From Minwuia sp. (GTDB taxonomy: Bacteria; Pseudomonadota; Alphaproteobacteria; Minwuiales; Minwuiaceae): 24,000 bases of DNA. The notes beneath the pieces are model-generated. The model saw only the letters and a list, made by a program, of their open reading frames with translations. It was not told where the DNA came from and searched no databases. The translations under genes were made by a program, and so were the position numbers. Shown piece after piece: positions 2,090-12,755 of the stretch. Every line of letters starts with the position of its first letter. Positions within the stretch are counted from its first letter, which is position 1. The stretch lies in the NCBI GenBank assembly GCA_965228535.1, contig CBDDHU010000003.1, positions 348,589 to 372,588 on the forward strand, written 5' to 3'.

Positions 2090-2911
2090 ATGAACCGTTT
2101 CCACCTGCACCTGGTTTCCGATTCCACGGGCGAGACGCTCACCGGGATCATGAATGCGGCGCTGGTGCAGTTCGCGGAAGCCGATGCCGTGAAGCATCTC
2201 TGGCCGATGATCCGCAACCGCGCCCAGATGGAACTGGTGATCCGCAGCATCCAGGACATGCCCGGCATCGTCGTCTTCACCGTGGTCGATGCCGAACTGC
2301 GCCTGATGCTGGAGGATGCCTGCCGCCGCATGGGGGTGCGCAGCGTCGCGGCACTGGACCCGGTGATGACCGCGCTCGGCAGCTTTCTCGGCGGCGAGAC
2401 GCGGGGCCGTCCCGGCATCCAGCACGAGATGAACAACGAGTATTTCGACCGTATCGAGGCGATGCACTTCACCCTGATCCATGATGACGGTCAGCATGTG
2501 GAGGACCTGGACCGTGCCGACGTGGTTCTGGTCGGCGTCTCGCGCACGTCCAAGACCCCCACCTGCATGTACCTGGCGAACCGGGGGCTGAAGGCGGCCA
2601 ACGTGCCCTTCGTCCCGTCGGTTCCGCTGCCGGAGCAGCTGCTGAAACTGCGCCGCCCGCTGGTGGTCGGGCTGACCACCTCCTCCGAACGGCTCAGCCA
2701 GATCCGTCGCAACCGCCTGCTCAGCCTCAGGGAATCCGGAGACAGTGATTATTCCGACCCGGAGATCGTGGCCAGCGAGCTGGCGGAGGCGAAGCGGGTC
2801 TTTGCCCGCAACCGCTGGCCCACCATCGACGTCACCCGGAAATCCATCGAGGAATCGGCGGCAGCCATACTTTCCCTGTACCAGCGTCGCATGGCCGGGC
2901 AGGAAGTATGA
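2090..2911 (+). CDS. DUF299 kinase/pyrophosphorylase (pyruvate, phosphate dikinase / PEP synthase regulatory protein; RP001/CC0001 homolog)
   Basis: 273-aa ORF with N-terminus MNRFHLHLVSDSTGETL and the motif LVGVSRTSKTPTCMYLA, both typical of the PDRP/PSRP family. Its stop overlaps the maf start (ATGA). Confidence 0.88.
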   Translation: MNRFHLHLVSDSTGETLTGIMNAALVQFAEADAVKHLWPMIRNRAQMELVIRSIQDMPGIVVFTVVDAELRLMLEDACRRMGVRSVAALDPVMTALGSFLGGETRGRPGIQHEMNNEYFDRIEAMHFTLIHDDGQHVEDLDRADVVLVGVSRTSKTPTCMYLANRGLKAANVPFVPSVPLPEQLLKLRRPLVVGLTTSSERLSQIRRNRLLSLRESGDSDYSDPEIVASELAEAKRVFARNRWPTIDVTRKSIEESAAAILSLYQRRMAGQEV

Positions 2912-3540
2912 CTTCAGGTGGTTCTACCGGGCTGATCCTCGCCTCCGGCAGTATGACCCGTCGCCGCCTGCTGGCGGCAACCGGTCTCGCCTTCCAGGTC
3001 ATGCCCGCCGACATCGACGAGGCTGCGGTGAAGCGGGCAGGAGTACAGCAGGGCCTGGCTCCCGAACGCATTGCCCTCACGCTTGCGGAGGGGAAAGCAA
3101 GCAGGATCAGTGACTTGTATCCTGATGCGCTTGTCCTGGCGGCGGATCAGCTGCTCTCCGTGGCTGGCGATCTGCTGGACAAGCCGGTAGGCCGGGAAGG
3201 TCTTGCGCGGCACCTGCAGCAGCTTTCCGGCCGGGTCCATCACCTGGTCAACGGGGTCGTACTGATGCGCGGGGCAGAGGTTATCTGGTCCTACTCCGAC
3301 CATTGCGAGATGGAAATGCGGCCCTTGACGGCGGCGGAGCAGGCGACCTACCTGGCATCCGCGCCGGAGGCGGTGATGTCGTCGGTCGGTGGCTACCGGA
3401 TCGAGGCGGAGGGGATTCACCTGTTCCGGCGCATGGACGGGGACTGGTCCGCCATCCTGGGCCTGCCGTTGCTGCCGCTGCTCGCTGCCCTGCGCGAGGC
3501 GGGGCTGACATGGCCGGAAGCGACCGGACAGGGGGAGTGA
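2908..3540 (+). CDS. maf: Maf-like nucleoside triphosphate pyrophosphatase
   Basis: 210-aa ORF with an N-terminal LILASGSMTRRRLL motif and a C-terminal GGYRIEAEG motif typical of Maf/YhdE proteins. It is translationally coupled to the upstream gene. Confidence 0.85.
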   Translation: MTSGGSTGLILASGSMTRRRLLAATGLAFQVMPADIDEAAVKRAGVQQGLAPERIALTLAEGKASRISDLYPDALVLAADQLLSVAGDLLDKPVGREGLARHLQQLSGRVHHLVNGVVLMRGAEVIWSYSDHCEMEMRPLTAAEQATYLASAPEAVMSSVGGYRIEAEGIHLFRRMDGDWSAILGLPLLPLLAALREAGLTWPEATGQGE

Positions 3541-3543
3541 AAC

Positions 3544-4395
3544 ATGTCTGACGATCATGCCGGGGCCTCCGTTCCCGGGGCCATCGCGGCGGTGCTGGGC
3601 TGGCCGGTGGCGCACAGCCTGTCGCCACGGCTGCACGGTTTCTGGCTGCAGGAACAGGGACTTGATGGCAGCTATCTCGGCCTGCCGGTTCCGCCCGACC
3701 GGTTCGAGACCGCGGTCCGCGGTCTGTCTGCGGCAGGTTTCAGGGGGGCGAACGTCACCGTGCCGCACAAGCTTGCGGCCCTGGAACTGGCGGACGAGAC
3801 CGACGCGGCGGCACGCGCCATCGGTGCGGTGAACACGTTGGTGTTCCAGGCCGACGGTCGCATCCTTGGCCGCAACACGGATGCCCATGGCTTCATGGCC
3901 AACCTGCGCCAGGGCGGGGTCGATCCGGAGGTGGGACCGGCACTGGTCATCGGTGCCGGTGGCGCGGCGCGGGCGGCGGTCCATGCCCTGCTCGACGCCG
4001 GCTGTCCCCGGCTCTACCTGACCAACAGGACCCGGGCAACGGCGGAGGCGCTGGCCGAGGGTATGGTTGATGACAGGATCACGGTATTGCCCCTTAACTG
4101 TCTGGAACAGTTGCCTGATGACATTGTATTGCTTGTCAACACCACCAGCCTTGGTATGGCGGGCAAGGGGGTGCTGGAAGTCGATCTGTCGGGCCTACCG
4201 CCGGGCGCCTGCATACATGACATCGTCTATGTCCCGCTGGAGACACCGCTGCTGCGGTCAGCCCGGGAACGCGGATTGCGGACGGTTGACGGGCTGGGCA
4301 TGCTGCTGCATCAGGCAGTACCGGCGTTCCGGGCCTTCTTCGGTCGGGACGTGGCGGTGACGGATGCGCTGCGGGCGCATGTGCTGGGGAGGTGA
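3544..4395 (+). CDS. aroE: Shikimate 5-dehydrogenase
   Basis: 283-aa ORF carrying [33 protein letters not shown] and the NADP-binding stretch [10 protein letters not shown]. Confidence 0.9.
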
Positions 4396-5742: not shown

Positions 5743-5943
5743 CGTCATTTTCCGTTTGCAGCCCTGCCCGAACCGTGTATGGAAAAGACCGTTGCGGCGC
5801 GTCCGCGGCACCATTCCCTCTTACCGGAACCGGAAACTGACAGCCTCCAGCAGGCGCTCCCCGGCATCCGGCATCCACTGATGCACAGATACCGGTCCGC
5901 TCCCGGGGCCGGACCCTGATCCCTTCCAGATTTGATGGTTGCT

Positions 5944-7200
<1,257 letters not shown>

Positions 7201-7201
7201 G

Positions 7202-7325
7202 CCCCTCCTCCCCCCTGGTGGGGGAGGAACGAGGGGGGGGAAGCCCGGTGTTTCAGCTTCGTCACCCGAAGCTGCCACTGTCGCCGCGCACCCCCTTCCC
7301 GACCTTCCCCCGTCGAGGGGGAAGG
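7202..7325. terminator. Cluster of three GC-rich hairpins between convergent rho and the Nudix gene (candidate bidirectional terminator or REP-like cluster)
   Basis: Hairpin 1 (7202-7236) has inner stem CTCCCCC / GGGGGAG with loop CTGGT, plus outer stem CCCCTC / GAGGGG with a 4-nt bulge. Hairpin 2 (7254-7274) is CAGCTTCG-TCACC-CGAAGCTG. Hairpin 3 (7303-7325) is CCTTCCCCC-GTCGA-GGGGGAAGG. There are no clear U-tracts. Confidence 0.45.
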
Positions 7326-7369
7326 GGCGCAGACGGCTTTGCATCAGCGCTGCTGGCGGTTCTGCCGAG

Positions 7370-7795
7370 TCAACCGCTCGCCGCCGCGCGCAGTCTTTCG
7401 GCCATGGTGATGATGCGCATGGTCTCCGGCCACAGCCCCAGTCGCGGCACCTCCGACAGCGGCATGAAGCACGCGGCCATGGCGTCGCTGCCGGCCACCG
7501 CCTCCCCCTGCAGCCACTCGCCCCACATGTCGACCAGGGTGTAGTGATAGACCAGCCTGCCGTCGGCATCGCGGTTGATGCCGTCCACCACGTCGATCAG
7601 GCCGTGGATGCGGCAGGTGACGCCGGTTTCCTCCAGCACCTCGCGCCGGGCGCCCTCCGCCACCGTCTCGCCCAGTTCCTGGCGTCCGCCGGGGATTGCC
7701 CATTCGCCCTTGCGCGGGGCCTTGCCGCGCCGGATCATCAGCACCTCGTCGGCACGGAAGATCACGGCACCGACGCCGATCTCGGGCCTCTTCAT
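7370..7795 (-). CDS. Nudix-family hydrolase
   Basis: Nudix box GGRQELGETVAEGARREVLEETGV (GX5EX7REUXEEXGU). The ATG at 7795 is preferred, and the track start at 7798 is a GTG one codon upstream. Substrate is unknown. Confidence 0.85.
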   Translation of the reverse strand: MKRPEIGVGAVIFRADEVLMIRRGKAPRKGEWAIPGGRQELGETVAEGARREVLEETGVTCRIHGLIDVVDGINRDADGRLVYHYTLVDMWGEWLQGEAVAGSDAMAACFMPLSEVPRLGLWPETMRIITMAERLRAAASG

Positions 7796-7821
7796 CACGC
7801 TCTCCCCCTTGTCATGCCGTC

Positions 7822-7861
7822 AGACTGTGCCATCCCTCTCCCCATCGCCTCTACTGGAACA
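7822..7861. repeat. Degenerate copy of the REP-like element found at 12607-12755
   Basis: AGACTGTGCCATCCCTCTCCCC (7822-7843) matches TGACTGTTCCATCCCTCTCCCC (12607-12628) at 20 of 22 positions. The opposite terminal motif GGAACAG is present at 7855-7861. The interior of the hairpin has been lost. Confidence 0.5.
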
Positions 7862-7934
7862 GACCGGGAAAAAGCGCTAGAGCTTGGGGGAAGGCGAGCG
7901 GCCGGGGAGGGCCATTGCGCCGGGGAGGACCATC

Positions 7935-9161
7935 ATGAGCATTGCATTCGATCCGAACGCGCCCGAGACCATCACCGATCCCTATCCGGGGCTGGCCATG
8001 CTGCGGGCCGAGGAACCGCTGCACTGGAGCCAGGTCAGCCGCGCCTGGTACATCACCCGCTACGAGGATGTGCGGAAGGGGTTCCGTGACAGGCGCATGT
8101 CGGCGGACCGCATCCGCCCCTTCGTCGAGGCCCAGCGGAACGGCCCGGACGGGGAGGAGATCGGCTTCCTGGGCGACCATATCGGCCACTGGGCGGTGTT
8201 CAACGACCCGCCGCGCCACGGCCACCTGCGCGGCCTGATGAACAAGGCCTTCACCAGCCGCCGGGTCGAGAGCCTGCGTGGCCAGGTGGCGGAGATGGTG
8301 GAGGGGCTGATCGCCGACTGGCAGGACGGGCAGGAAGTGGATTTCCACCAGGCCTTCGCCTATCCCCTGCCCGCGACCGTGATCGCGCTGCTGCTGGGGG
8401 TGCCGCAGCAGGACGTGGATCACCTGAAGCGCTGGTCGGATGCGCTGGCGCAGTTCGTGCTGACCTCCAAGACCAACCCGGACAAGTACAGGGTCGCGGC
8501 GGCGGCGCTGGCGGAGATGAACAGCTACTTCCAGGGCTTTCTCGAGGACCGGCGGGCCAACCCGGGGGAACTGGTGACCGACGGCCTGATCGACGCCACG
8601 GACGAGGGCGACCGGCTGACCGCGGACGAGCTGGTGGCAAGCTGCATCCTGCTGCTGTTCGCCGGACACGAGACCACGACGCAGTTGCTGGCCAACGGGC
8701 TGCACGCGCTGCTGCAGCATCCCGACCAACTGGCCGAGTTCCGTGCCCATGGCGATGACGCGGCCTTCACCCGCAACGCGGTGGAGGAACTGCTGCGCTT
8801 CGACGGTCCCAGCCTCACCTCGCCGCGCATCGCGGCGGAGGACGTGGAACTGCATGGCCAGACCATCGCCAAGGGCCAGCGCATCTGGCTGTGGAACTGC
8901 GCCGCCAACCGCGACGGCACGGTGTTCGAGGATCCCGACCGGCTGAACCTGCGGCGGCCCAATGCCGACCGGCATGTCACCTTCGGCTTCGGCATCCATT
9001 TCTGCATCGGCGCGCCGCTGGCGAAGCTGGAGGCGGAGGTGGCCTTCCCCATCCTGCTGCGGCGCTTCAGCCGCATCGAGGCGGTGAAACCGGTGCAGCA
9101 ATGGTCGGATTCCTACGTCTCGCGGGGCATGACCAGCTTCCCCGTGCGGGTCTGGCGCTGA
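7935..9161 (+). CDS. Cytochrome P450 monooxygenase
   Basis: Carries the heme Cys-ligand loop FGFGIHFCIGAPLA, the I-helix motif LLFAGHETTTQ and the K-helix motif EELLR. The ATG at 7935 is preceded by GGGGAGGA, and the 17-codon extension in the track is unlikely. Confidence 0.9.
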   Translation: MSIAFDPNAPETITDPYPGLAMLRAEEPLHWSQVSRAWYITRYEDVRKGFRDRRMSADRIRPFVEAQRNGPDGEEIGFLGDHIGHWAVFNDPPRHGHLRGLMNKAFTSRRVESLRGQVAEMVEGLIADWQDGQEVDFHQAFAYPLPATVIALLLGVPQQDVDHLKRWSDALAQFVLTSKTNPDKYRVAAAALAEMNSYFQGFLEDRRANPGELVTDGLIDATDEGDRLTADELVASCILLLFAGHETTTQLLANGLHALLQHPDQLAEFRAHGDDAAFTRNAVEELLRFDGPSLTSPRIAAEDVELHGQTIAKGQRIWLWNCAANRDGTVFEDPDRLNLRRPNADRHVTFGFGIHFCIGAPLAKLEAEVAFPILLRRFSRIEAVKPVQQWSDSYVSRGMTSFPVRVWR

Positions 9162-9163
9162 CC

Positions 9164-9808
9164 ATGATGAAACTGGTCGGGCGCTACACCTCGCCCTATG
9201 TCCGCCGGGTCGCGATCACCATGCTGACCTGCGGGCTGGAATTCGAGCTGGTGGAACGGCTGCCCTTCGGCGAGGACAAGGCGGAGGTGCGGAAGTTCAA
9301 CCCGCTGGGCCGCATCCCGGCGCTGGTGCTGGCGGATGGCGAGACCATCGTGGAGAGCGGCACCATCATCGACTGCCTGGACGACATGGTCGGGCCGGAG
9401 CGTGCGCTGACCCCGCCAACGGGGGCGGAGCGCCGCGCGGTGCTGAACCTGCTCGCCGTCGCCTCCGGCGCGACCGACAAGCTGGTCTCGTCGCTCTACG
9501 AACATCACCTGCGGCCGCCGGAGATGGTGCACCGGCCATGGGCCAAGATGTGCGACCGCCAGGCCACGGACGGCTTCCGCTGGCTGGAGCAGCGCCTGCA
9601 GGGCGACTGGTTCGTCGGTGACCGCATGACCCAGGCCGACCTGACCGTCGCGGTGTTCTGGCAGTTCGGGGTGGAGAAACGCCCCAACTTCTTCGCCCGC
9701 ATGGATTGCCCGAAGCTGACGGCGCTGTCCGACCGCCTTGCCGCGACCGAACCCTTCCGCCTGACGCCACAGGGCGAGGGTCTGCCGAAGGGTATCGCGC
9801 TGGAATAG
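9164..9808 (+). CDS. Glutathione S-transferase family protein
   Basis: MMKLVGRYTSPYVRRVAITML...NPLGRIPALVLADGETIVESGTIIDCL is a GST N-terminal thioredoxin-like domain. The start lies 3 nt after the P450 stop (9159-9161). The track ORF 8891..9808 carries a spurious N-terminal extension that overlaps the P450 gene. Confidence 0.85.
   Translation: MMKLVGRYTSPYVRRVAITMLTCGLEFELVERLPFGEDKAEVRKFNPLGRIPALVLADGETIVESGTIIDCLDDMVGPERALTPPTGAERRAVLNLLAVASGATDKLVSSLYEHHLRPPEMVHRPWAKMCDRQATDGFRWLEQRLQGDWFVGDRMTQADLTVAVFWQFGVEKRPNFFARMDCPKLTALSDRLAATEPFRLTPQGEGLPKGIALE
9770..9808 (+). repeat. Direct repeat copy 1 (last 13 codons, including the stop, of the GST gene)
   Basis: CAGGGCGAGGGTCTGCCGAAGGGTATCGCGCTGGAATAG recurs at 11585-11623 with a single T/C difference, which is synonymous in the GST frame (GGT vs GGC). 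Confidence 0.9.
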
Positions 9809-9895
9809 CGCCGCCCGTCGCCGCTTGTCCCGTGATCCGGCGCGTGGTCTGCTGTGGTGAACGTGCAGGTGGCCGGACGGGGGCGGGATACACGC

Positions 9896-11482
9896 ATGGT
9901 GATGGGCGTGGGGGAGATCATCGGACTGCTGGCGCTGCTGCTGACGGTTCTCGGCGGCCTGTCGGCCTATTACCTCGACATGCTGAAACACCGCCAGGGC
10001 AAGGCCTTTCTGCGTCTGCGCGCCAGCCTGCGCAAGGGCAGTACCACCGCCCTGGTCTATGCTTGGACCCTCAAATGGCTGCTGGCGAAGGTCGACCGGT
10101 TCTTCGAGGGCGAGCCCTACGATCCGAAGGACGACATCGATCCGGCCACCCGTCTGGGCCGCCTCGCGCGCTGGCTGTTCCGCCGCCCGCCCGACTACCG
10201 CCGCCCACCGAAAATCCGGGACCGGTCCTGGCAGGCCCCGGCCTGGAGCGCCGCCAGCTATGACCGCTGCCTGCTGCTGGCAGTGATCTATCCGATTGCG
10301 TCCGCCCTGCTGTCCTGGCTGATCGCGGGGGAGGCCGGAACTCTCGGGCAAGCCCTTGGCCTCGTGGACATTTCCGATGCTCTCTACCGCCTCTATGTAG
10401 GAGGAGTCTTCACGGTCGGGACGGGTTTCTTCGTCGCCGGGCTGGCCCTCAATGGCTGGAAGGGCCCGGTTTGTGTCGTGCTTTATGTGGCAATCCTTGT
10501 TGGCGGAGGAAACTTGGCGGACACGCTGTTCGCCGACGCCGACGCCAGAGCATTCGTTGTCGCTTTCGCTGTCGCCTTCGCTGTCGCTGGCGCTTTCGCT
10601 GTCGCTGGCGATGTCGCTCTCGCTTTCGCTTTCGCTGTCGCTGTCGCTGTCGCATTCGCTGTTGCTGGCGTTGCCGCTCTCGCTTTCGTTGTCGCTGTCG
10701 CTTTCGCTTTCGCTGTGGCTTTCGCTTTCGCTGTCGCTGTCGCGGCGACGCTGGACAGGAGGACCATCGTCTTCGGTTGCGTGTCCATCCTGAATCTTGT
10801 TGCAGCATATGTTGTGGTCGGCCTCGCAGCCGGACCGGACGTATCAGAGACCCGGTTTGGGATCCTCGTCGGTTTGGTGCTCCTCCCCCTCGTCAACGCC
10901 CCGTTCGACTGGCTGTCGGTCGGGCTGACACGCTATCTGCTGCGCCTGGGTCTCCAACGGCAGCGGTTGCGGGAGCGGATTGTCTGGTGGCTGGCGGATA
11001 TTGCCGGGGCGGCGCTGTTGCTGCTGGGCGTTGCCGTTGCCATGGTGGTGGCGCTGGAGGGGCTGAATGCGGTGGGTTTCGCGGGTGGCATGAGCGAGCC
11101 CATCGCGCCGGTTGCGGCGACGCTGCATGACATCCGTGCCGAACCGGACGCGGCGCGGCATCTCTGGATCTACTTTGCCCTGTTCTCCACCCTGATTCCG
11201 ACCCTGGTGCATCTGGTGGTGATCCTGTTCAGCGCGCTGACCGCCAATTTTCCGCCGTTGCAGGGCATGATCGTGCGGCTCATCGCGCTGGGACCGGATG
11301 CGGGCTACAACCCGCTGATTGGCTTCCTGCTCAGCGTTCGCTGGGTCATCGCCATCGCGGCGACCGCGTTGCTGGCCTTCTGCATCTGGTGGATCGGGTC
11401 GGCGGTGCTGCATGTCTGGGAAGACCTGCTCTGGCTGCTGATCGAGGTGCAGAAGCTCAGCCGCGCCCTGTTTGTCGGGTAG
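9896..11482 (+). CDS. Orphan multi-pass membrane protein with a central (Val/Phe)-Ala dipeptide-repeat array; no family recognised
   Basis: This is the only long ORF spanning the region. From the ATG at 9896 it is 528 aa; the track GTG at 9854 adds 14 aa. It begins with a hydrophobic helix (GEIIGLLALLLTVLGGLSAYYL), followed by a basic, proline-containing stretch (RRPPDYRRPPKIRDRSW). Many hydrophobic segments then run to the C-terminus. Confidence 0.6.
   Translation: MVMGVGEIIGLLALLLTVLGGLSAYYLDMLKHRQGKAFLRLRASLRKGSTTALVYAWTLKWLLAKVDRFFEGEPYDPKDDIDPATRLGRLARWLFRRPPDYRRPPKIRDRSWQAPAWSAASYDRCLLLAVIYPIASALLSWLIAGEAGTLGQALGLVDISDALYRLYVGGVFTVGTGFFVAGLALNGWKGPVCVVLYVAILVGGGNLADTLFADADARAFVVAFAVAFAVAGAFAVAGDVALAFAFAVAVAVAFAVAGVAALAFVVAVAFAFAVAFAFAVAVAATLDRRTIVFGCVSILNLVAAYVVVGLAAGPDVSETRFGILVGLVLLPLVNAPFDWLSVGLTRYLLRLGLQRQRLRERIVWWLADIAGAALLLLGVAVAMVVALEGLNAVGFAGGMSEPIAPVAATLHDIRAEPDAARHLWIYFALFSTLIPTLVHLVVILFSALTANFPPLQGMIVRLIALGPDAGYNPLIGFLLSVRWVIAIAATALLAFCIWWIGSAVLHVWEDLLWLLIEVQKLSRALFVG
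10553..10744 (+). repeat. Tandem hexanucleotide repeat, about 32 units of (G/T)TCGCT
   Basis: The run GTCGCT TTCGCT GTCGCC TTCGCT GTCGCT GGCGCT ... is read in frame as FVVAFAVAFAVAGAFAVAGDVALAFAFAVAVAVAFAVAGVAALAFVVAVAFAFAVAFAFAVAVA. All six frames are open across it, which is why the track shows SLSLSL, RCRFRC, KRKRQR and ATATAKAK artefact ORFs. Confidence 0.9.
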
Positions 11483-11584
11483 CGGGTCGCTTCGCCTTCC
11501 CCCCGCAGACCGAGAACCTGATGCTTGGTCCGGCCCCTGGATGTTCGTGCGGTACTCCCGGATGCCCGGGTCGCGCCCACGTCG

Positions 11585-11623
11585 CAGGGCGAGGGCCTGC
11601 CGAAGGGTATCGCGCTGGAATAG
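11585..11623 (+). repeat. Direct repeat copy 2 (non-coding duplicate of the GST 3' end)
   Basis: CAGGGCGAGGGCCTGCCGAAGGGTATCGCGCTGGAATAG matches 9770-9808 at 38 of 39 positions. In the GST frame an in-frame TGA lies about 25 codons upstream, so no functional GST reading frame leads into it. Confidence 0.9.
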
Positions 11624-11670
11624 GGCAACAGGAGCGCGGGGCGGAGGTGTCCGGCGCGTTGATCCCCGGT

Positions 11671-12429
11671 TCAGTTGGTGAGCCAGCCGGAACGGGCGGC
11701 GATGGCGATGGCCTCGGTGCGGTTGGCGGCGTTGAGTTTCTTCATCACGTTGGCGACGTGGAACTTCACGGTGCGTTCGCTGATGCCCAGGATCTCGCCG
11801 ATCTCCGAGTTGCTGCGGCCCCTCGACATCCACAGCAGGCATTCCTGTTCCCGGCGGGAGAACATGACGTCCGCCAGTTCGCCCTCCCCGCCCAGCACCA
11901 GGTAGTCGGCGATGCTGACGGTGAAGCGCAGCGCCAGCCGGTGTACCTCGTTGGTGGTGGCGGCGATGGTCTCCGCCGCGCCGGCCGGGTCGCCCAGCAT
12001 GAACAGGTACAGGGCCTGGGTGCGCAGCGGGGTGTTCATGGGGATGAACAGGTCATGCTTGATGCCGAAGCGCTTCTCCAGCGCCCAGATCCAGCGTTGC
12101 CGCCGGGTCAGCACCATTCCCGACCGCTCCGCCAGGGTGGTGAAGGGGGCATGGCGTTCGGAGACAAGCTGCAGCATCGGGTCGAAGCGGAACATGCGGC
12201 GGCTGTAGTAGATTGCCTCGAACGCCTTCAGGAAGGCCGGCCCGCGAGAGAGCACGAACGCCTCCCCCGCCGCGACCTCGTCCAGCGGCATGCGGCGGTG
12301 GGTGTAGTAGACGAAGCCCGCATAGCCCATGCCGCGCACGCGGTATTCCAGCGCGTCGCCCAGATCGTCCAGCGAGATGGCCTCCGCCATCTGCCGCTCG
12401 AACTCCAGATCCGGTCCCTGTTCAGCCAT
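11671..12429 (-). CDS. LuxR-family transcriptional regulator with an autoinducer-binding-like N-terminal domain (LuxR solo in this window)
   Basis: 252-aa ORF. The C-terminus carries the HTH region SRREQECLLWMSRGRSNSEIGEILGISERTVKFHVANVMKKLNAANRTEAIAIA. The N-terminal region of about 170 aa resembles acyl-HSL receptor domains (for example RFDPM and FGIKHDLFIP). No luxI-type synthase is present in the window. Confidence 0.85.
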   Translation of the reverse strand: MAEQGPDLEFERQMAEAISLDDLGDALEYRVRGMGYAGFVYYTHRRMPLDEVAAGEAFVLSRGPAFLKAFEAIYYSRRMFRFDPMLQLVSERHAPFTTLAERSGMVLTRRQRWIWALEKRFGIKHDLFIPMNTPLRTQALYLFMLGDPAGAAETIAATTNEVHRLALRFTVSIADYLVLGGEGELADVMFSRREQECLLWMSRGRSNSEIGEILGISERTVKFHVANVMKKLNAANRTEAIAIAARSGWLTN

Positions 12430-12478
12430 CCGGTCCCCTCCGTCAGCGCCATACTGCTGCAGCCGGAACGGGAACTGT

Positions 12479-12498
12479 ACCTGTCCGAACGGTCAGGT
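12479..12498. promoter_or_regulatory. lux-box-like 20-bp imperfect palindrome upstream of the LuxR-family gene
   Basis: In ACCTGTCCGAACGGTCAGGT, 8 of 10 positions are dyad-symmetric. By hand alignment it is identical to the Vibrio fischeri lux box ACCTGTAGGATCGTACAGGT at 15 of 20 positions. Its centre is about 60 bp upstream of the ATG at 12429. It overlaps a perfect tandem GTCAGGT GTCAGGT (12492-12505). Confidence 0.45.
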
Positions 12499-12606
12499 GT
12501 CAGGTTTCATCGGGATCCTGCCGGTCGCGAACGCCTCGAGCCGGGCACCCGGGCCTGGCCCGGTCGCGCCGTGGGGTCCCGAGGCGACCTTCCGGGAGTC
12601 CATCGC

Positions 12607-12755
12607 TGACTGTTCCATCCCTCTCCCCCTCCCGGCCACTCAATAAGGATACTCCCGTGGGTGGCCGGGAGGGGGAGAGGGATGGAACAGGCCAACCAGC
12701 AAGTCCGGAGAGGGATGGAACAGACCACAGACAGACCCGGAGAGGGACGGAACGG
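12607..12755. repeat. REP-like element: a perfect 30-bp-stem hairpin plus two further direct copies of its terminal 17-mer
   Basis: Arms CTGTTCCATCCCTCTCCCCCTCCCGGCCAC (12610-12639) and GTGGCCGGGAGGGGGAGAGGGATGGAACAG (12661-12690) are exact reverse complements around a 21-nt loop. The motif GGAGAGGGATGGAACAG recurs at 12707-12723 and as the variant GGAGAGGGACGGAACGG at 12739-12755, with a period of about 33 bp. The element lies between the sdhB stop and the LuxR promoter region. Confidence 0.8.

What the first reader, a model, noticed from the sequence alone, without database searches (positions are those of the whole stretch)
9770..11623. Single-gene 1.8-kb insertion bounded by 39-bp direct repeats that duplicate the 3' end of the GST gene
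The last 39 nt of the GST ORF (9770-9808, including TAG) recur 1,815 bp downstream (11585-11623) at 38 of 39 identity. The only difference is a synonymous GGT/GGC change. Between the copies lies exactly one gene, the orphan membrane protein. The second copy is not preceded by an open GST reading frame, so it looks like a displaced gene end. Deleting one repeat unit would restore a compact convergent GST/LuxR junction with 47 bp between the stops. Duplication of a target gene's 3' end is the footprint of site-specific integration (attL/attR). It could also arise from a recombination-mediated cassette gain. However, 39 bp is far longer than a transposase target-site duplication, and the unit contains no integrase, transposase or terminal inverted repeats. 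A further shared 10-mer, TCCGGCGCGT, lies at nearly the same offset after both copies (9836-9845 and 11650-11659), hinting that the duplicated segment was once longer. An integrase-less single-cargo unit that rebuilds the gene it lands in does not fit any element class I recognise.
Basis: partly seen in the sequence, partly recalled or inferred. Interest (0 to 1): 0.72.

Follow-up and report, generated by a model that had tools for sequence, protein, structure and literature searches.

The report
Old single-gene insertion behind GST gene
A foreign membrane-protein gene was inserted long ago just behind a glutathione S-transferase (GST) gene in a marine Minwuia-like bacterium, duplicating the gene's last 45 bases; some strains carry it and others do not, and nothing shows that it moves by itself.

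Summary
The last 45 nt of the GST gene (9764-9808) recur at 11579-11623. The 39-nt core matches at 38 of 39, and the spacing is 1815 nt.

Fifteen contigs from strains about 98% identical carry the empty site. In eight of them the GST stop is followed by exactly 47 nt and then the LuxR stop; seven have a 32-nt spacer variant. Four further assemblies carry the same insertion with the same junctions, so this is not an assembly artefact.

The insert looks foreign: its GC3 is 0.78 against 0.90-0.93 for neighbouring genes. It is also old. Two filled alleles differ by dS 0.21 inside the insert, against 0.04-0.08 in the flanks.

The displaced copy is decaying. Its stop codon has changed from TAG to CAG in two lineages.

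The cargo is not an orphan. It belongs to an unnamed membrane-protein family of about 3000 clusters. That family was not found on plasmids, phages or viral contigs, and it has flanking repeats in only 1 of 34 other loci.

The 24-kb window holds no recombinase, transposase, terminal inverted repeats or attC-like structure.

I read it as a single ancient insertion that is now a presence/absence allele shuffled by homologous recombination. How the 45-bp duplication arose is unresolved. It could be illegitimate insertion, a decayed integrative element, or Campbell-type recombination.

The parts
9164..9808 (+). GST gene; intact, and ends with repeat copy 1
   Evidence: Pfam GST_N_3/GST_N_2/GST_C. 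Orthologues at 99% identity sit in both empty and filled alleles.
9764..9808 (+). Repeat copy 1 (c1): the functional last 15 codons of GST, including TAG
   Evidence: Identical in the window, L100, L101 and L102. L110 carries a variant.
9809..9895 (+). Left non-coding end of the insert. It includes a leader at 9859-9895 that is conserved with the nearest homologue.
   Evidence: Absent from all empty alleles. 9859-9898 is 87.5% identical to the region upstream of the 62%-identical homologue in L009, with 0 of 2000 shuffles scoring as high.
9896..11482 (+). Cargo: a 528-aa polytopic membrane protein of an unnamed family
   Evidence: No hit in Pfam, NCBIfam, PADLOC or PHROGs. 3027 cluster representatives at E<=0.001. 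GC3 0.78. AF2 pLDDT 76 with no fold match. The same gene is called as 528 aa in L100 and L101.
10554..10743 (+). Hexanucleotide array (TCGCTG x 31.7) encoding the Ala/Val/Phe-rich segment; the most variable part of the gene
   Evidence: 28.8% divergence plus indels between the window and L110. Homologues have the same low-complexity region.
11483..11578 (+). Right non-coding end of the insert
   Evidence: Absent from empty alleles. 10-16% divergent between filled alleles. No structure or Rfam family.
11579..11623 (+). Repeat copy 2 (c2): the displaced, non-functional original GST 3' end
   Evidence: Contiguous with the ancestral downstream flank. No open GST frame upstream. TAG has become CAG in L100, L101 and L110.
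11624..11670 (.). Ancestral 47-nt GST-LuxR spacer
   Evidence: Same sequence directly after the GST stop in L012, L099 and L103-L109. A variant with a 15-nt deletion (32 nt) is found in L013-L018.
11671..12429 (-). LuxR-family regulator with an autoinducer-binding domain; right neighbour of the site
   Evidence: Pfam GerE + Autoind_bind. Adjacent to GST in all empty alleles.
9832..9845 (+). 14-mer GTGATCCGGCGCGT, similar to GTGTCCGGCGCGT (11647-11659) at the same offset after copy 2; unexplained
   Evidence: Banded test p=0.0018 for the window and 0.016 for L110.

Best explanation
A horizontally acquired 1.77-kb fragment was inserted once at the end of the GST gene. The fragment holds one membrane-protein gene with short flanks. 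The host is an ancestor of this marine Minwuia-like species.

The event duplicated the last 45 bp of GST. Copy 1 keeps GST intact. Copy 2, still joined to the original downstream spacer, is a decaying relic.

The unit has no mobility functions of its own. It has stayed at this one site and now segregates as a presence/absence allele. It is gained, lost and scrambled by homologous recombination in the flanking genes, within the insert, and probably between the two 45-bp repeats, which would give precise deletion.

Shown:
- The insertion, the empty and filled alleles, and identical junctions.
- Foreign composition, old age, decay of copy 2, and the absence of recombinase genes or terminal structures.

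Inferred:
- A single origin.
- Spread and loss by homologous recombination.
- Formation of the 45-bp duplication by a one-off illegitimate event, such as capture of foreign DNA at a staggered break that was then filled in, or a replication template switch that re-entered 45 nt behind the exit point. I favour this over a dedicated integrase.
For: Empty and filled alleles:
- Empty alleles at 98% identity match the window on both sides. The 45-48 nt overlap equals the repeat.
- There are 15 empty contigs and 4 further filled contigs from independent samples.
- The junctions are identical in three diverged filled lineages.
- The flank after copy 2, GGCAACA..., is the ancestral one.

Foreign origin and age:
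- Insert GC3 is 0.78, against 0.90-0.93 in seven neighbouring genes.
- Within the insert, dS is 0.21 and non-coding divergence is 10-16%. Flank dS is 0.04-0.08.
- The cargo is under purifying selection: omega 0.42 overall and 0.125 in the C-terminal third.
- Copy 2 has lost its stop codon in two lineages and carries a Pro-to-Ser change in the window.

No mobility machinery:
- No recombinase or transposase anywhere in the 24 kb.
- No terminal inverted repeats, no stable hairpins, no Rfam family.
- The cargo family is absent from PLSDB plasmids, INPHARED phages and IMG/VR.
- 33 of 34 complete homologue loci have no flanking repeat.
- The nearest relatives sit alone in unrelated housekeeping contexts, for example between atpC and the lysyl-tRNA synthetase gene.

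Recombination:
- L100 equals the window over 9707-11232 (0 differences) but equals L110 over 11233-11633.
- The four polymorphic sites of the 45-mer occur in almost all combinations. Several empty-allele tails look like chimeras of copy 1 and copy 2 with different crossover points. For example, L012 = A,T|C,T, and L103 = A|C,T,C together with the window-type spacer.
Against: - A 45-bp target duplication is far longer than anything known for transposases. It is also not a documented regular outcome of bacterial illegitimate recombination (my own knowledge, not tested here).
- The repeat ends at the stop codon. That is the pattern of integrase-mediated insertion into gene 3' ends.
- Copy 1 carries T and copy 2 carries C at site 9781/11596 in all three filled lineages. 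This needs one early substitution under in-situ duplication, but none if the cassette brought its own copy of the gene end.
- Copy-2 haplotypes match tails found in empty alleles. Repeated integration into different backgrounds would also predict this.
- One homologue locus (L044) has a 24-nt flanking repeat.
- The 14-mer shared at the same offset after both copies (p about 0.002, post hoc) is not explained.
- The rest of the genome could not be searched for a trans-acting recombinase or for further copies.
Confidence: 0.55

Rival explanations
1. The unit is a decayed or satellite integrative element, comparable to a cis-mobilizable element (CIME). The 45-bp repeats would be attL and attR of a tyrosine-recombinase element that targets the 3' end of GST and supplies a replacement gene end. 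The integrase was lost by internal deletion or acts in trans from elsewhere in the genome.
For: - The direct repeats duplicate a gene's 3' end and stop at the stop codon.
- Copy 1 and copy 2 differ by a fixed T/C in all filled lineages, and copy-2 haplotypes equal the tails of empty alleles. This fits attL carrying element sequence and attR carrying host sequence.
- Known precedents exist. e14 in icd leaves a 163-bp pseudo-icd' (PMC6379469). CIMEs retain attL and attR without integration genes (PMC5704250). Degenerate tycheposon remnants leave partial tRNAs.
Against: - No recombinase gene or fragment lies in the unit or the 24-kb window.
- Only 87 and 96 nt of non-coding DNA flank the cargo, which leaves no room for remnants.
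- No cognate element, second site or larger variant was found.
- The cargo family is not found on mobile elements.
- Both halves of the repeat look like local alleles rather than a diverged mimic.
- Apparent crossover points in empty alleles vary. That fits homologous rather than site-specific recombination.
- Recombination inside the cassette has to be invoked in any case.
Confidence: 0.22
2. The insertion arose by RecA-dependent recombination on incoming DNA. One version is homology-facilitated illegitimate recombination anchored in GST, with the illegitimate joint falling 45 bp before the recipient's stop codon. The other is Campbell-type single crossover of a circularised fragment that already carried a GST tail next to the membrane-protein gene.
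For: - It explains why the repeat ends at the stop codon: homology between donor and recipient ends where the gene ends.
- Copy 1 and copy 2 carry different population haplotypes.
- The locus recombines heavily.
- 45 bp is near the lower limit for RecA-mediated exchange (my own knowledge).
Against: - It needs a donor in which the membrane-protein gene already lay directly behind a nearly identical GST gene. This only moves the origin problem back one step.
- No such arrangement without copy 2 was seen in any of the 20 alleles or 5 more distant relatives.
- The cargo's composition and its nearest homologues (62% and 50% identity, in other contexts) point to a distant source.
Confidence: 0.15
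3. The repeat is an assembly artefact or a chance or dispersed repeat.
For: None beyond the general risk of misjoins at repeated k-mers in metagenome assemblies.
Against: - The same structure was assembled independently in L100, L101, L102 and L110 from four sequencing runs.
- The two copies are not identical, and their longest exact shared stretch is only 27 nt including the stop codon.
- The 39-mer has no other copy in the window, with 0 expected by chance.
Confidence: 0.01

Closest known systems
e14 / phage 21 integration into the 3' end of icd in E. coli
   Same: The insertion falls in the 3' end of a protein-coding gene. The gene stays intact. A displaced pseudo 3' end lies at the far side of the insert as a direct repeat, with a few synonymous differences (PMC6379469).
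   Different: e14 is a prophage remnant, far larger than this unit, and integrates site-specifically into icd (PMC6379469); that it encodes its own integrase is from my own knowledge. The unit here is 1.8 kb with one membrane-protein gene and no recombinase.
CIME (cis-mobilizable element): a decayed ICE or IME that keeps attL and attR
   Same: [quoted passage not shown]
   Different: CIMEs are recognised by att sites shared with a known cognate ICE or IME that can mobilise them. No cognate element, no second copy and no remnant genes were found here.
Flexible genomic islet: a presence/absence accessory-gene polymorphism maintained by homologous recombination
   Same: Fixed chromosomal position between conserved genes. 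Filled and empty alleles occur in one species. Cargo alleles are divergent and the flanks are mosaic.
   Different: Such islets usually lack a long, clean target duplication that rebuilds a gene end (my own knowledge).
Transposon or insertion-sequence target-site duplication
   Same: Direct duplication of target sequence on both sides of an insert.
   Different: Known duplications are about 2-15 bp, and the elements carry a transposase and terminal repeats (my own knowledge). Here the duplication is 45 bp and neither feature is present.

Membership tests
Integrative element with its own site-specific recombinase (genomic island, ICE, IME or prophage) | Tyrosine or serine recombinase gene inside the element | tested here: not met
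   The only ORF with support is the membrane protein, which has no Pfam or NCBIfam hit. No recombinase lies anywhere in the 24-kb window.
Integrative element with its own site-specific recombinase (genomic island, ICE, IME or prophage) | Direct repeats (attL/attR) at the boundaries, often the 3' end of a gene | tested here: met
   45-nt repeats at 9764-9808 and 11579-11623. The empty site was reconstructed from L012 and others.
Integrative element with its own site-specific recombinase (genomic island, ICE, IME or prophage) | Excision or integration at a fixed crossover position | tested here: inconclusive
   Tail haplotypes of empty alleles look like copy 1/copy 2 chimeras with different breakpoints. 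Only four informative sites exist, and recurrent mutation is not excluded.
CIME (cis-mobilizable element) | Lacks integration and transfer genes but retains attL and attR | tested here: met
   Definition from PMC5704250.
CIME (cis-mobilizable element) | att sites shared with a cognate ICE or IME able to mobilise it | not testable with these tools
   The rest of the genome is not available. No related element was seen in 20 alleles of the locus, in plasmids, in phages or in viral contigs.
IS element or DNA transposon | Transposase gene and terminal inverted repeats | tested here: not met
   No transposase domain. No inverted repeat joins the two ends of the unit.
IS element or DNA transposon | Short target-site duplication (about 2-15 bp) | tested here: not met
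   The duplication is 45 bp.
Integron gene cassette | attC recombination site (an imperfect inverted repeat that folds as a hairpin) 3' of the ORF, with an integron integrase nearby | tested here: not met
   The 96-nt 3' flank folds no better than shuffles (z = +0.9). No Rfam match. No integrase in the window.
Xer/dif-dependent integrating element (IMEX) | A dif-like 28-bp site at the junctions | not tested
   No dif model for this clade was available. The 45-mer is coding sequence of GST.
Unnamed alphaproteobacterial membrane-protein family (the cargo) | Conserved motifs LLPLVNAPFDW..GLTR and LFSTLIPT, with a central Ala/Val/Phe-rich region | tested here: met
   Alignment A1 gives invariant N334, D338, G343, T345, W424, S431 and P435. 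3027 cluster representatives at E<=0.001.

The most novel reading that the evidence does not exclude
The unit is a minimal, recombinase-less cassette that carries a copy of its target's gene end. It repeatedly excises and re-integrates at the GST 3' end, using host RecA or an unlinked recombinase. In this reading copy 1 travels with the cassette, and copy 2 is whatever tail the recipient strain had. The 24-nt repeats around a distant homologue (L044) would hint that the membrane-protein family is prone to this lifestyle.
Probability: 0.1. Interest if true: 0.7.

Novelty: new member of a known kind. Interest (0 to 1): 0.32.

Why it matters
This is a cleanly resolved natural example of how one foreign gene enters a compact bacterial chromosome without harming its neighbours. 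Empty alleles, filled alleles and decaying relic sequences can all be compared in a single marine species.

The 45-bp duplication is unusually long for an insert with no recombinase. If its origin could be pinned down, it would show either how non-transposon insertions arise or how integrative elements decay to a single gene.

Separately, the cargo belongs to a family of about 3000 clusters with no name and no recognisable fold. Its alleles here diverge several times faster than the neighbouring genes, which makes it a candidate for a surface- or phage-related function worth testing.

Tried and rejected
- **Assembly artefact:** rejected. Four independent assemblies show the same structure, and the two copies are not identical.
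- **Dispersed repeat:** rejected. There are only two copies in the window, and in all related loci the 45-mer is found only at GST ends.
- **Transposon:** rejected. No transposase or terminal inverted repeats, and the duplication is 45 bp.
- **Integron cassette, structured RNA or terminator at the ends:** no signal.
- **A family-wide property of the cargo:** I scanned 80 metagenome loci. Of 34 complete homologue ORFs with flanks, only L044 has a flanking repeat. Its repeat shares no significant motif with the window's repeat (p about 0.15-0.2).
- **Cargo carried by plasmids or phages:** no match in PLSDB, INPHARED or IMG/VR.
- **Defence-system or phage-protein annotation of the cargo:** no hit in PADLOC or PHROGs.
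- **Exact-protein look-ups:** the window's GST and membrane protein are not on record.
- **A misleading result:** the first homologue search missed the near-identical proteins of L100 and L110 because of its candidate cap. Its 62% 'best hit' is therefore not evidence that the gene is unique.
- **A longer, inverted or decayed duplication beyond the stop codon:** only the 14-mer stands out. The reverse-complement and upstream comparisons are at chance level.
- **Flank phylogeny, to test whether filled alleles form one clade:** the trees are star-like and uninformative.
Full report
**1. The observation**

The 39-mer CAGGGCGAGGGTCTGCCGAAGGGTATCGCGCTGGAATAG lies at 9770-9808 and, with one mismatch, at 11585-11623. 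It has no other copy in the window, and none is expected by chance. The repeat finder extends it to 48 nt, 9764-9811 and 11579-11626, with 1815 nt spacing.

- cytochrome P450, 7884-9161
- GST, 9164-9808
- a Pfam-less membrane protein
- a convergent LuxR-family regulator with an autoinducer-binding domain, 11671-12429

The frame leading into the second copy is closed by a stop codon. The shared 10-mer TCCGGCGCGT is also present after both copies.

**2. Whose genome, and what relatives show**

A scan of species-representative genomes with the GST protein found only relatives at about 85% nucleotide identity. These are Minwuia and 'Kordiimonadales' genomes and MAGs.

In them GST is followed by GGCAACACGG, a hairpin, and a convergent rho gene. 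There is no LuxR gene and no membrane-protein gene. Two conclusions follow:
- The flank after copy 2 in the window (GGCAACAGG...) is the ancestral downstream flank of GST. The flank after copy 1 (CGCCGCCCG...) is not.
- The nudix-P450-GST block has been inverted relative to rho in the window's lineage. This is an older, unrelated rearrangement.

**3. Empty and filled alleles in the same species**

Close GST homologues (99% identity) and their cluster members led to 19 contigs from independent metagenomes, about 98% identical to the window.

Fifteen contigs are empty sites:
- L012, L099 and L103-L109 have the GST stop, exactly 47 nt, then the LuxR stop.
- L013-L018 have a variant spacer of 32 nt, with a 15-nt deletion.

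L012 aligns to window 6690-9811 and to 11579-12637 at 98.2% and 98.1%. The two alignments overlap by exactly the repeat.

Four contigs are filled. L100, L101, L102 and L110 carry a 528- or 530-aa gene at the same place with the same two junctions.

**4. Anatomy of the insert**

The duplicated target is 45 nt, from ACG to TAG. The inserted DNA, in order, is:
- 9809-9895: non-coding
- 9896-11482: the gene
- 11483-11578: non-coding

The 40 nt before the ATG are 87.5% identical to the region upstream of the nearest homologue (L009), although the genes themselves are only about 70% identical. The insert therefore brought its own leader.

No inverted repeats join the ends. No stable hairpin, attC-like fold or Rfam family is present. 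No promoter or terminator signal exceeds chance. The rest of the 24-kb window encodes housekeeping genes only (and the gene tables).

**5. Foreign and old**

GC3 of the cargo is 0.78. Even without the repeat array it is 0.81-0.82. Seven neighbouring genes have 0.90-0.93.

| Comparison | Measure | Value |
|---|---|---|
| Cargo, window vs L110 | amino-acid identity | 82% |
| Cargo, window vs L110 | dS / dN / omega | 0.21 / 0.09 / 0.42 |
| Cargo, C-terminal third | omega | 0.125 |
| P450, GST, LuxR between strains | dS | 0.04-0.08 |
| P450, GST, LuxR between strains | omega | 0.0-0.13 |
| 96-nt 3' flank of insert, between filled alleles | divergence | 10-16% |
| Copy 2, between filled alleles | divergence | 7-9% |

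Copy 2 has lost its stop codon (TAG to CAG) in L100, L101 and L110. In the window it carries a Pro-to-Ser change.

The insert is thus a functional gene. Its alleles are older than the coalescence of the surrounding core genes. This is not a fresh insertion.

**6. Recombination**

The locus is a mosaic:
- L100, L101 and L102 are identical to the window from 9707 to 11232, with 0 differences in about 1.5 kb.
- They differ from the window by 1.1-1.8% in the flank to the left.
- From 11233 to 11633 L100 agrees with L110 against the window.

The four polymorphic sites of the 45-mer (9769, 9781, 9793, 9796) occur in nearly all combinations among copy 1, copy 2 and the tails of empty alleles. Some empty tails read like chimeras of copy 1 and copy 2 with different breakpoints:
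- L012 = A,T|C,T.
- L103 = A|C,T,C, together with the window-type spacer, including the A at 11633.

This is what recombination between the repeats, or with DNA from other strains, would produce. With only four sites, recurrent mutation cannot be excluded. Flank trees are star-like and do not resolve whether filled alleles are monophyletic.

**7. The cargo**

It is not an orphan. A profile of 23 homologues finds 3027 cluster representatives at E<=0.001 and 1134 at E<=1e-30. Named members come from Alphaproteobacteria, including Minwuia, Rhodospirillum, Hyphomonas, Planktomarina, Methylocystis and Roseiarcus.

All members share the motifs LLPLVNAPFDW..GLTR and LFSTLIPT and a central Ala/Val/Phe-rich stretch. 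In the window that stretch is encoded by a TCGCTG array.

- No Pfam, NCBIfam, PADLOC or PHROGs model matches.
- An AlphaFold2 model (pLDDT 76) is an all-helical polytopic membrane protein with no significant match in the PDB or in viral structure predictions.
- The family is absent from PLSDB plasmids, INPHARED phages and IMG/VR.

The closest relatives sit as single genes in unrelated places. One lies between atpC and a lysyl-tRNA synthetase gene in a Minwuia MAG, without flanking repeats. Among 34 complete homologue loci from metagenomes, only L044 has a flanking direct repeat (24 nt, 22 of 24 matching). Its sequence is unrelated to the GST tail.

**8. Mechanism**

Firmly shown:
- one insertion site
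- one pair of junctions
- a 45-bp target duplication
- a foreign cargo
- great age
- no mobility genes
- recombinational shuffling

How the duplication arose is inference. I favour a one-off illegitimate insertion, either foreign DNA captured at a staggered break that was then filled in, or a template switch that re-entered 45 nt upstream. Three reasons support this: nothing else about the unit or its gene family suggests a mobile element, both repeat halves look like local alleles, and homologous recombination alone accounts for the population pattern.

The main rival is a decayed integrative element that kept its att sites. It would be CIME-like (PMC5704250) and analogous to e14 in icd (PMC6379469). 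Evidence for it:
- The repeat ends at the stop codon.
- There is a fixed T/C difference between copy 1 and copy 2.
- Copy-2 haplotypes match the tails of empty alleles.

Evidence against it:
- No recombinase, remnant, cognate element or second site was found.

A RecA-driven event on incoming DNA, either homology-facilitated illegitimate recombination or Campbell-type integration, would also explain the stop-codon boundary. It needs a donor that already had this gene behind a near-identical GST, and no such donor was seen.

The 14-mer shared at the same offset after both copies is unexplained (p about 0.002 in the window and 0.016 in L110, post hoc).

**9. Verdict**

The thing itself is best filed as an old, single-gene horizontally acquired islet with an unusually long target duplication. 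It is a new member of a known kind rather than a new class of element.

Interest is modest. The points worth following are the origin of the 45-bp duplication and the fast-evolving, uncharacterised membrane-protein family.

Noticed in passing
window 9896-11482; L110 2587-4179: The membrane-protein gene is hypervariable within one species. The two alleles are 82% identical in amino acids (dS 0.21, omega 0.42), while neighbouring genes differ by dS 0.04-0.08. The C-terminal third is conserved (omega 0.125).
   Followed up: partly
window 10554-10743: A hexanucleotide tandem array (TCGCTG x 31.7) encodes an Ala/Val/Phe-rich segment. Homologues, including L011, have the same kind of DNA-level repeat. 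It carries indels between alleles (528 vs 530 aa).
   Followed up: partly
L044 2547-2570 and 4439-4462: A distant homologue of the membrane protein (ORF 2678-4366) is flanked by a 24-nt direct repeat (22 of 24 matching, CGCAGCGAAGGTCGGCAATCCGCC), both copies intergenic. It is the only such case among 34 complete loci. I could not tell whether it is a dispersed repeat or an insertion scar.
   Followed up: partly
window 5932-9811 versus L001-L004: In relatives at 85% identity, the nudix-P450-GST block is inverted relative to rho. GST there converges on rho across a shared hairpin, and no LuxR gene follows. In L004 (IMCC3096) GST lacks its first 40 codons, and about 4.5 kb lies between P450 and GST.
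   Followed up: partly
window 12610-12753: A REP-like element: a 33-nt inverted repeat (97% complementary, 12610-12642 and 12658-12690), followed by three direct copies of GGAGAGGGATGGAAC. Related copies occur at other positions in the relatives' loci.
   Followed up: no
window 11641-11655 versus L013-L018: The GST-LuxR spacer has a 15-nt indel polymorphism among empty alleles (47 vs 32 nt). The indel is bounded by short GGCGCG repeats.
   Followed up: no
window 9832-9845 and 11647-11659: GTGATCCGGCGCGT and GTGTCCGGCGCGT sit at the same offset (about 24 nt) after the two repeat copies. Banded shuffle test p=0.0018. The divergent allele L110 keeps a weaker version (p=0.016). Its origin is unexplained.
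   Followed up: partly
L011 9403-11387: Another homologue of the membrane protein is followed by about 1.9 kb of complex nested tandem repeats, with 25-nt and roughly 430-500-nt periods.
   Followed up: no
L009 and L010 (whole contigs): The closest distinct homologue (62% identity) was assembled twice, from different runs, as a 1.75-kb contig. Both contigs end in REP-like hairpins (GCCCGGACTTGATCCGGGC and GCTCGCGGATCAAGTCCGCGAGC). The contig breaks therefore reflect repeats and are not evidence of a free unit.
   Followed up: partly
L103 around window-equivalent 9695-9727: An empty allele has a cluster of six private substitutions within 33 nt, just upstream of the 45-mer. This suggests a short import from a divergent source.
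   Followed up: no
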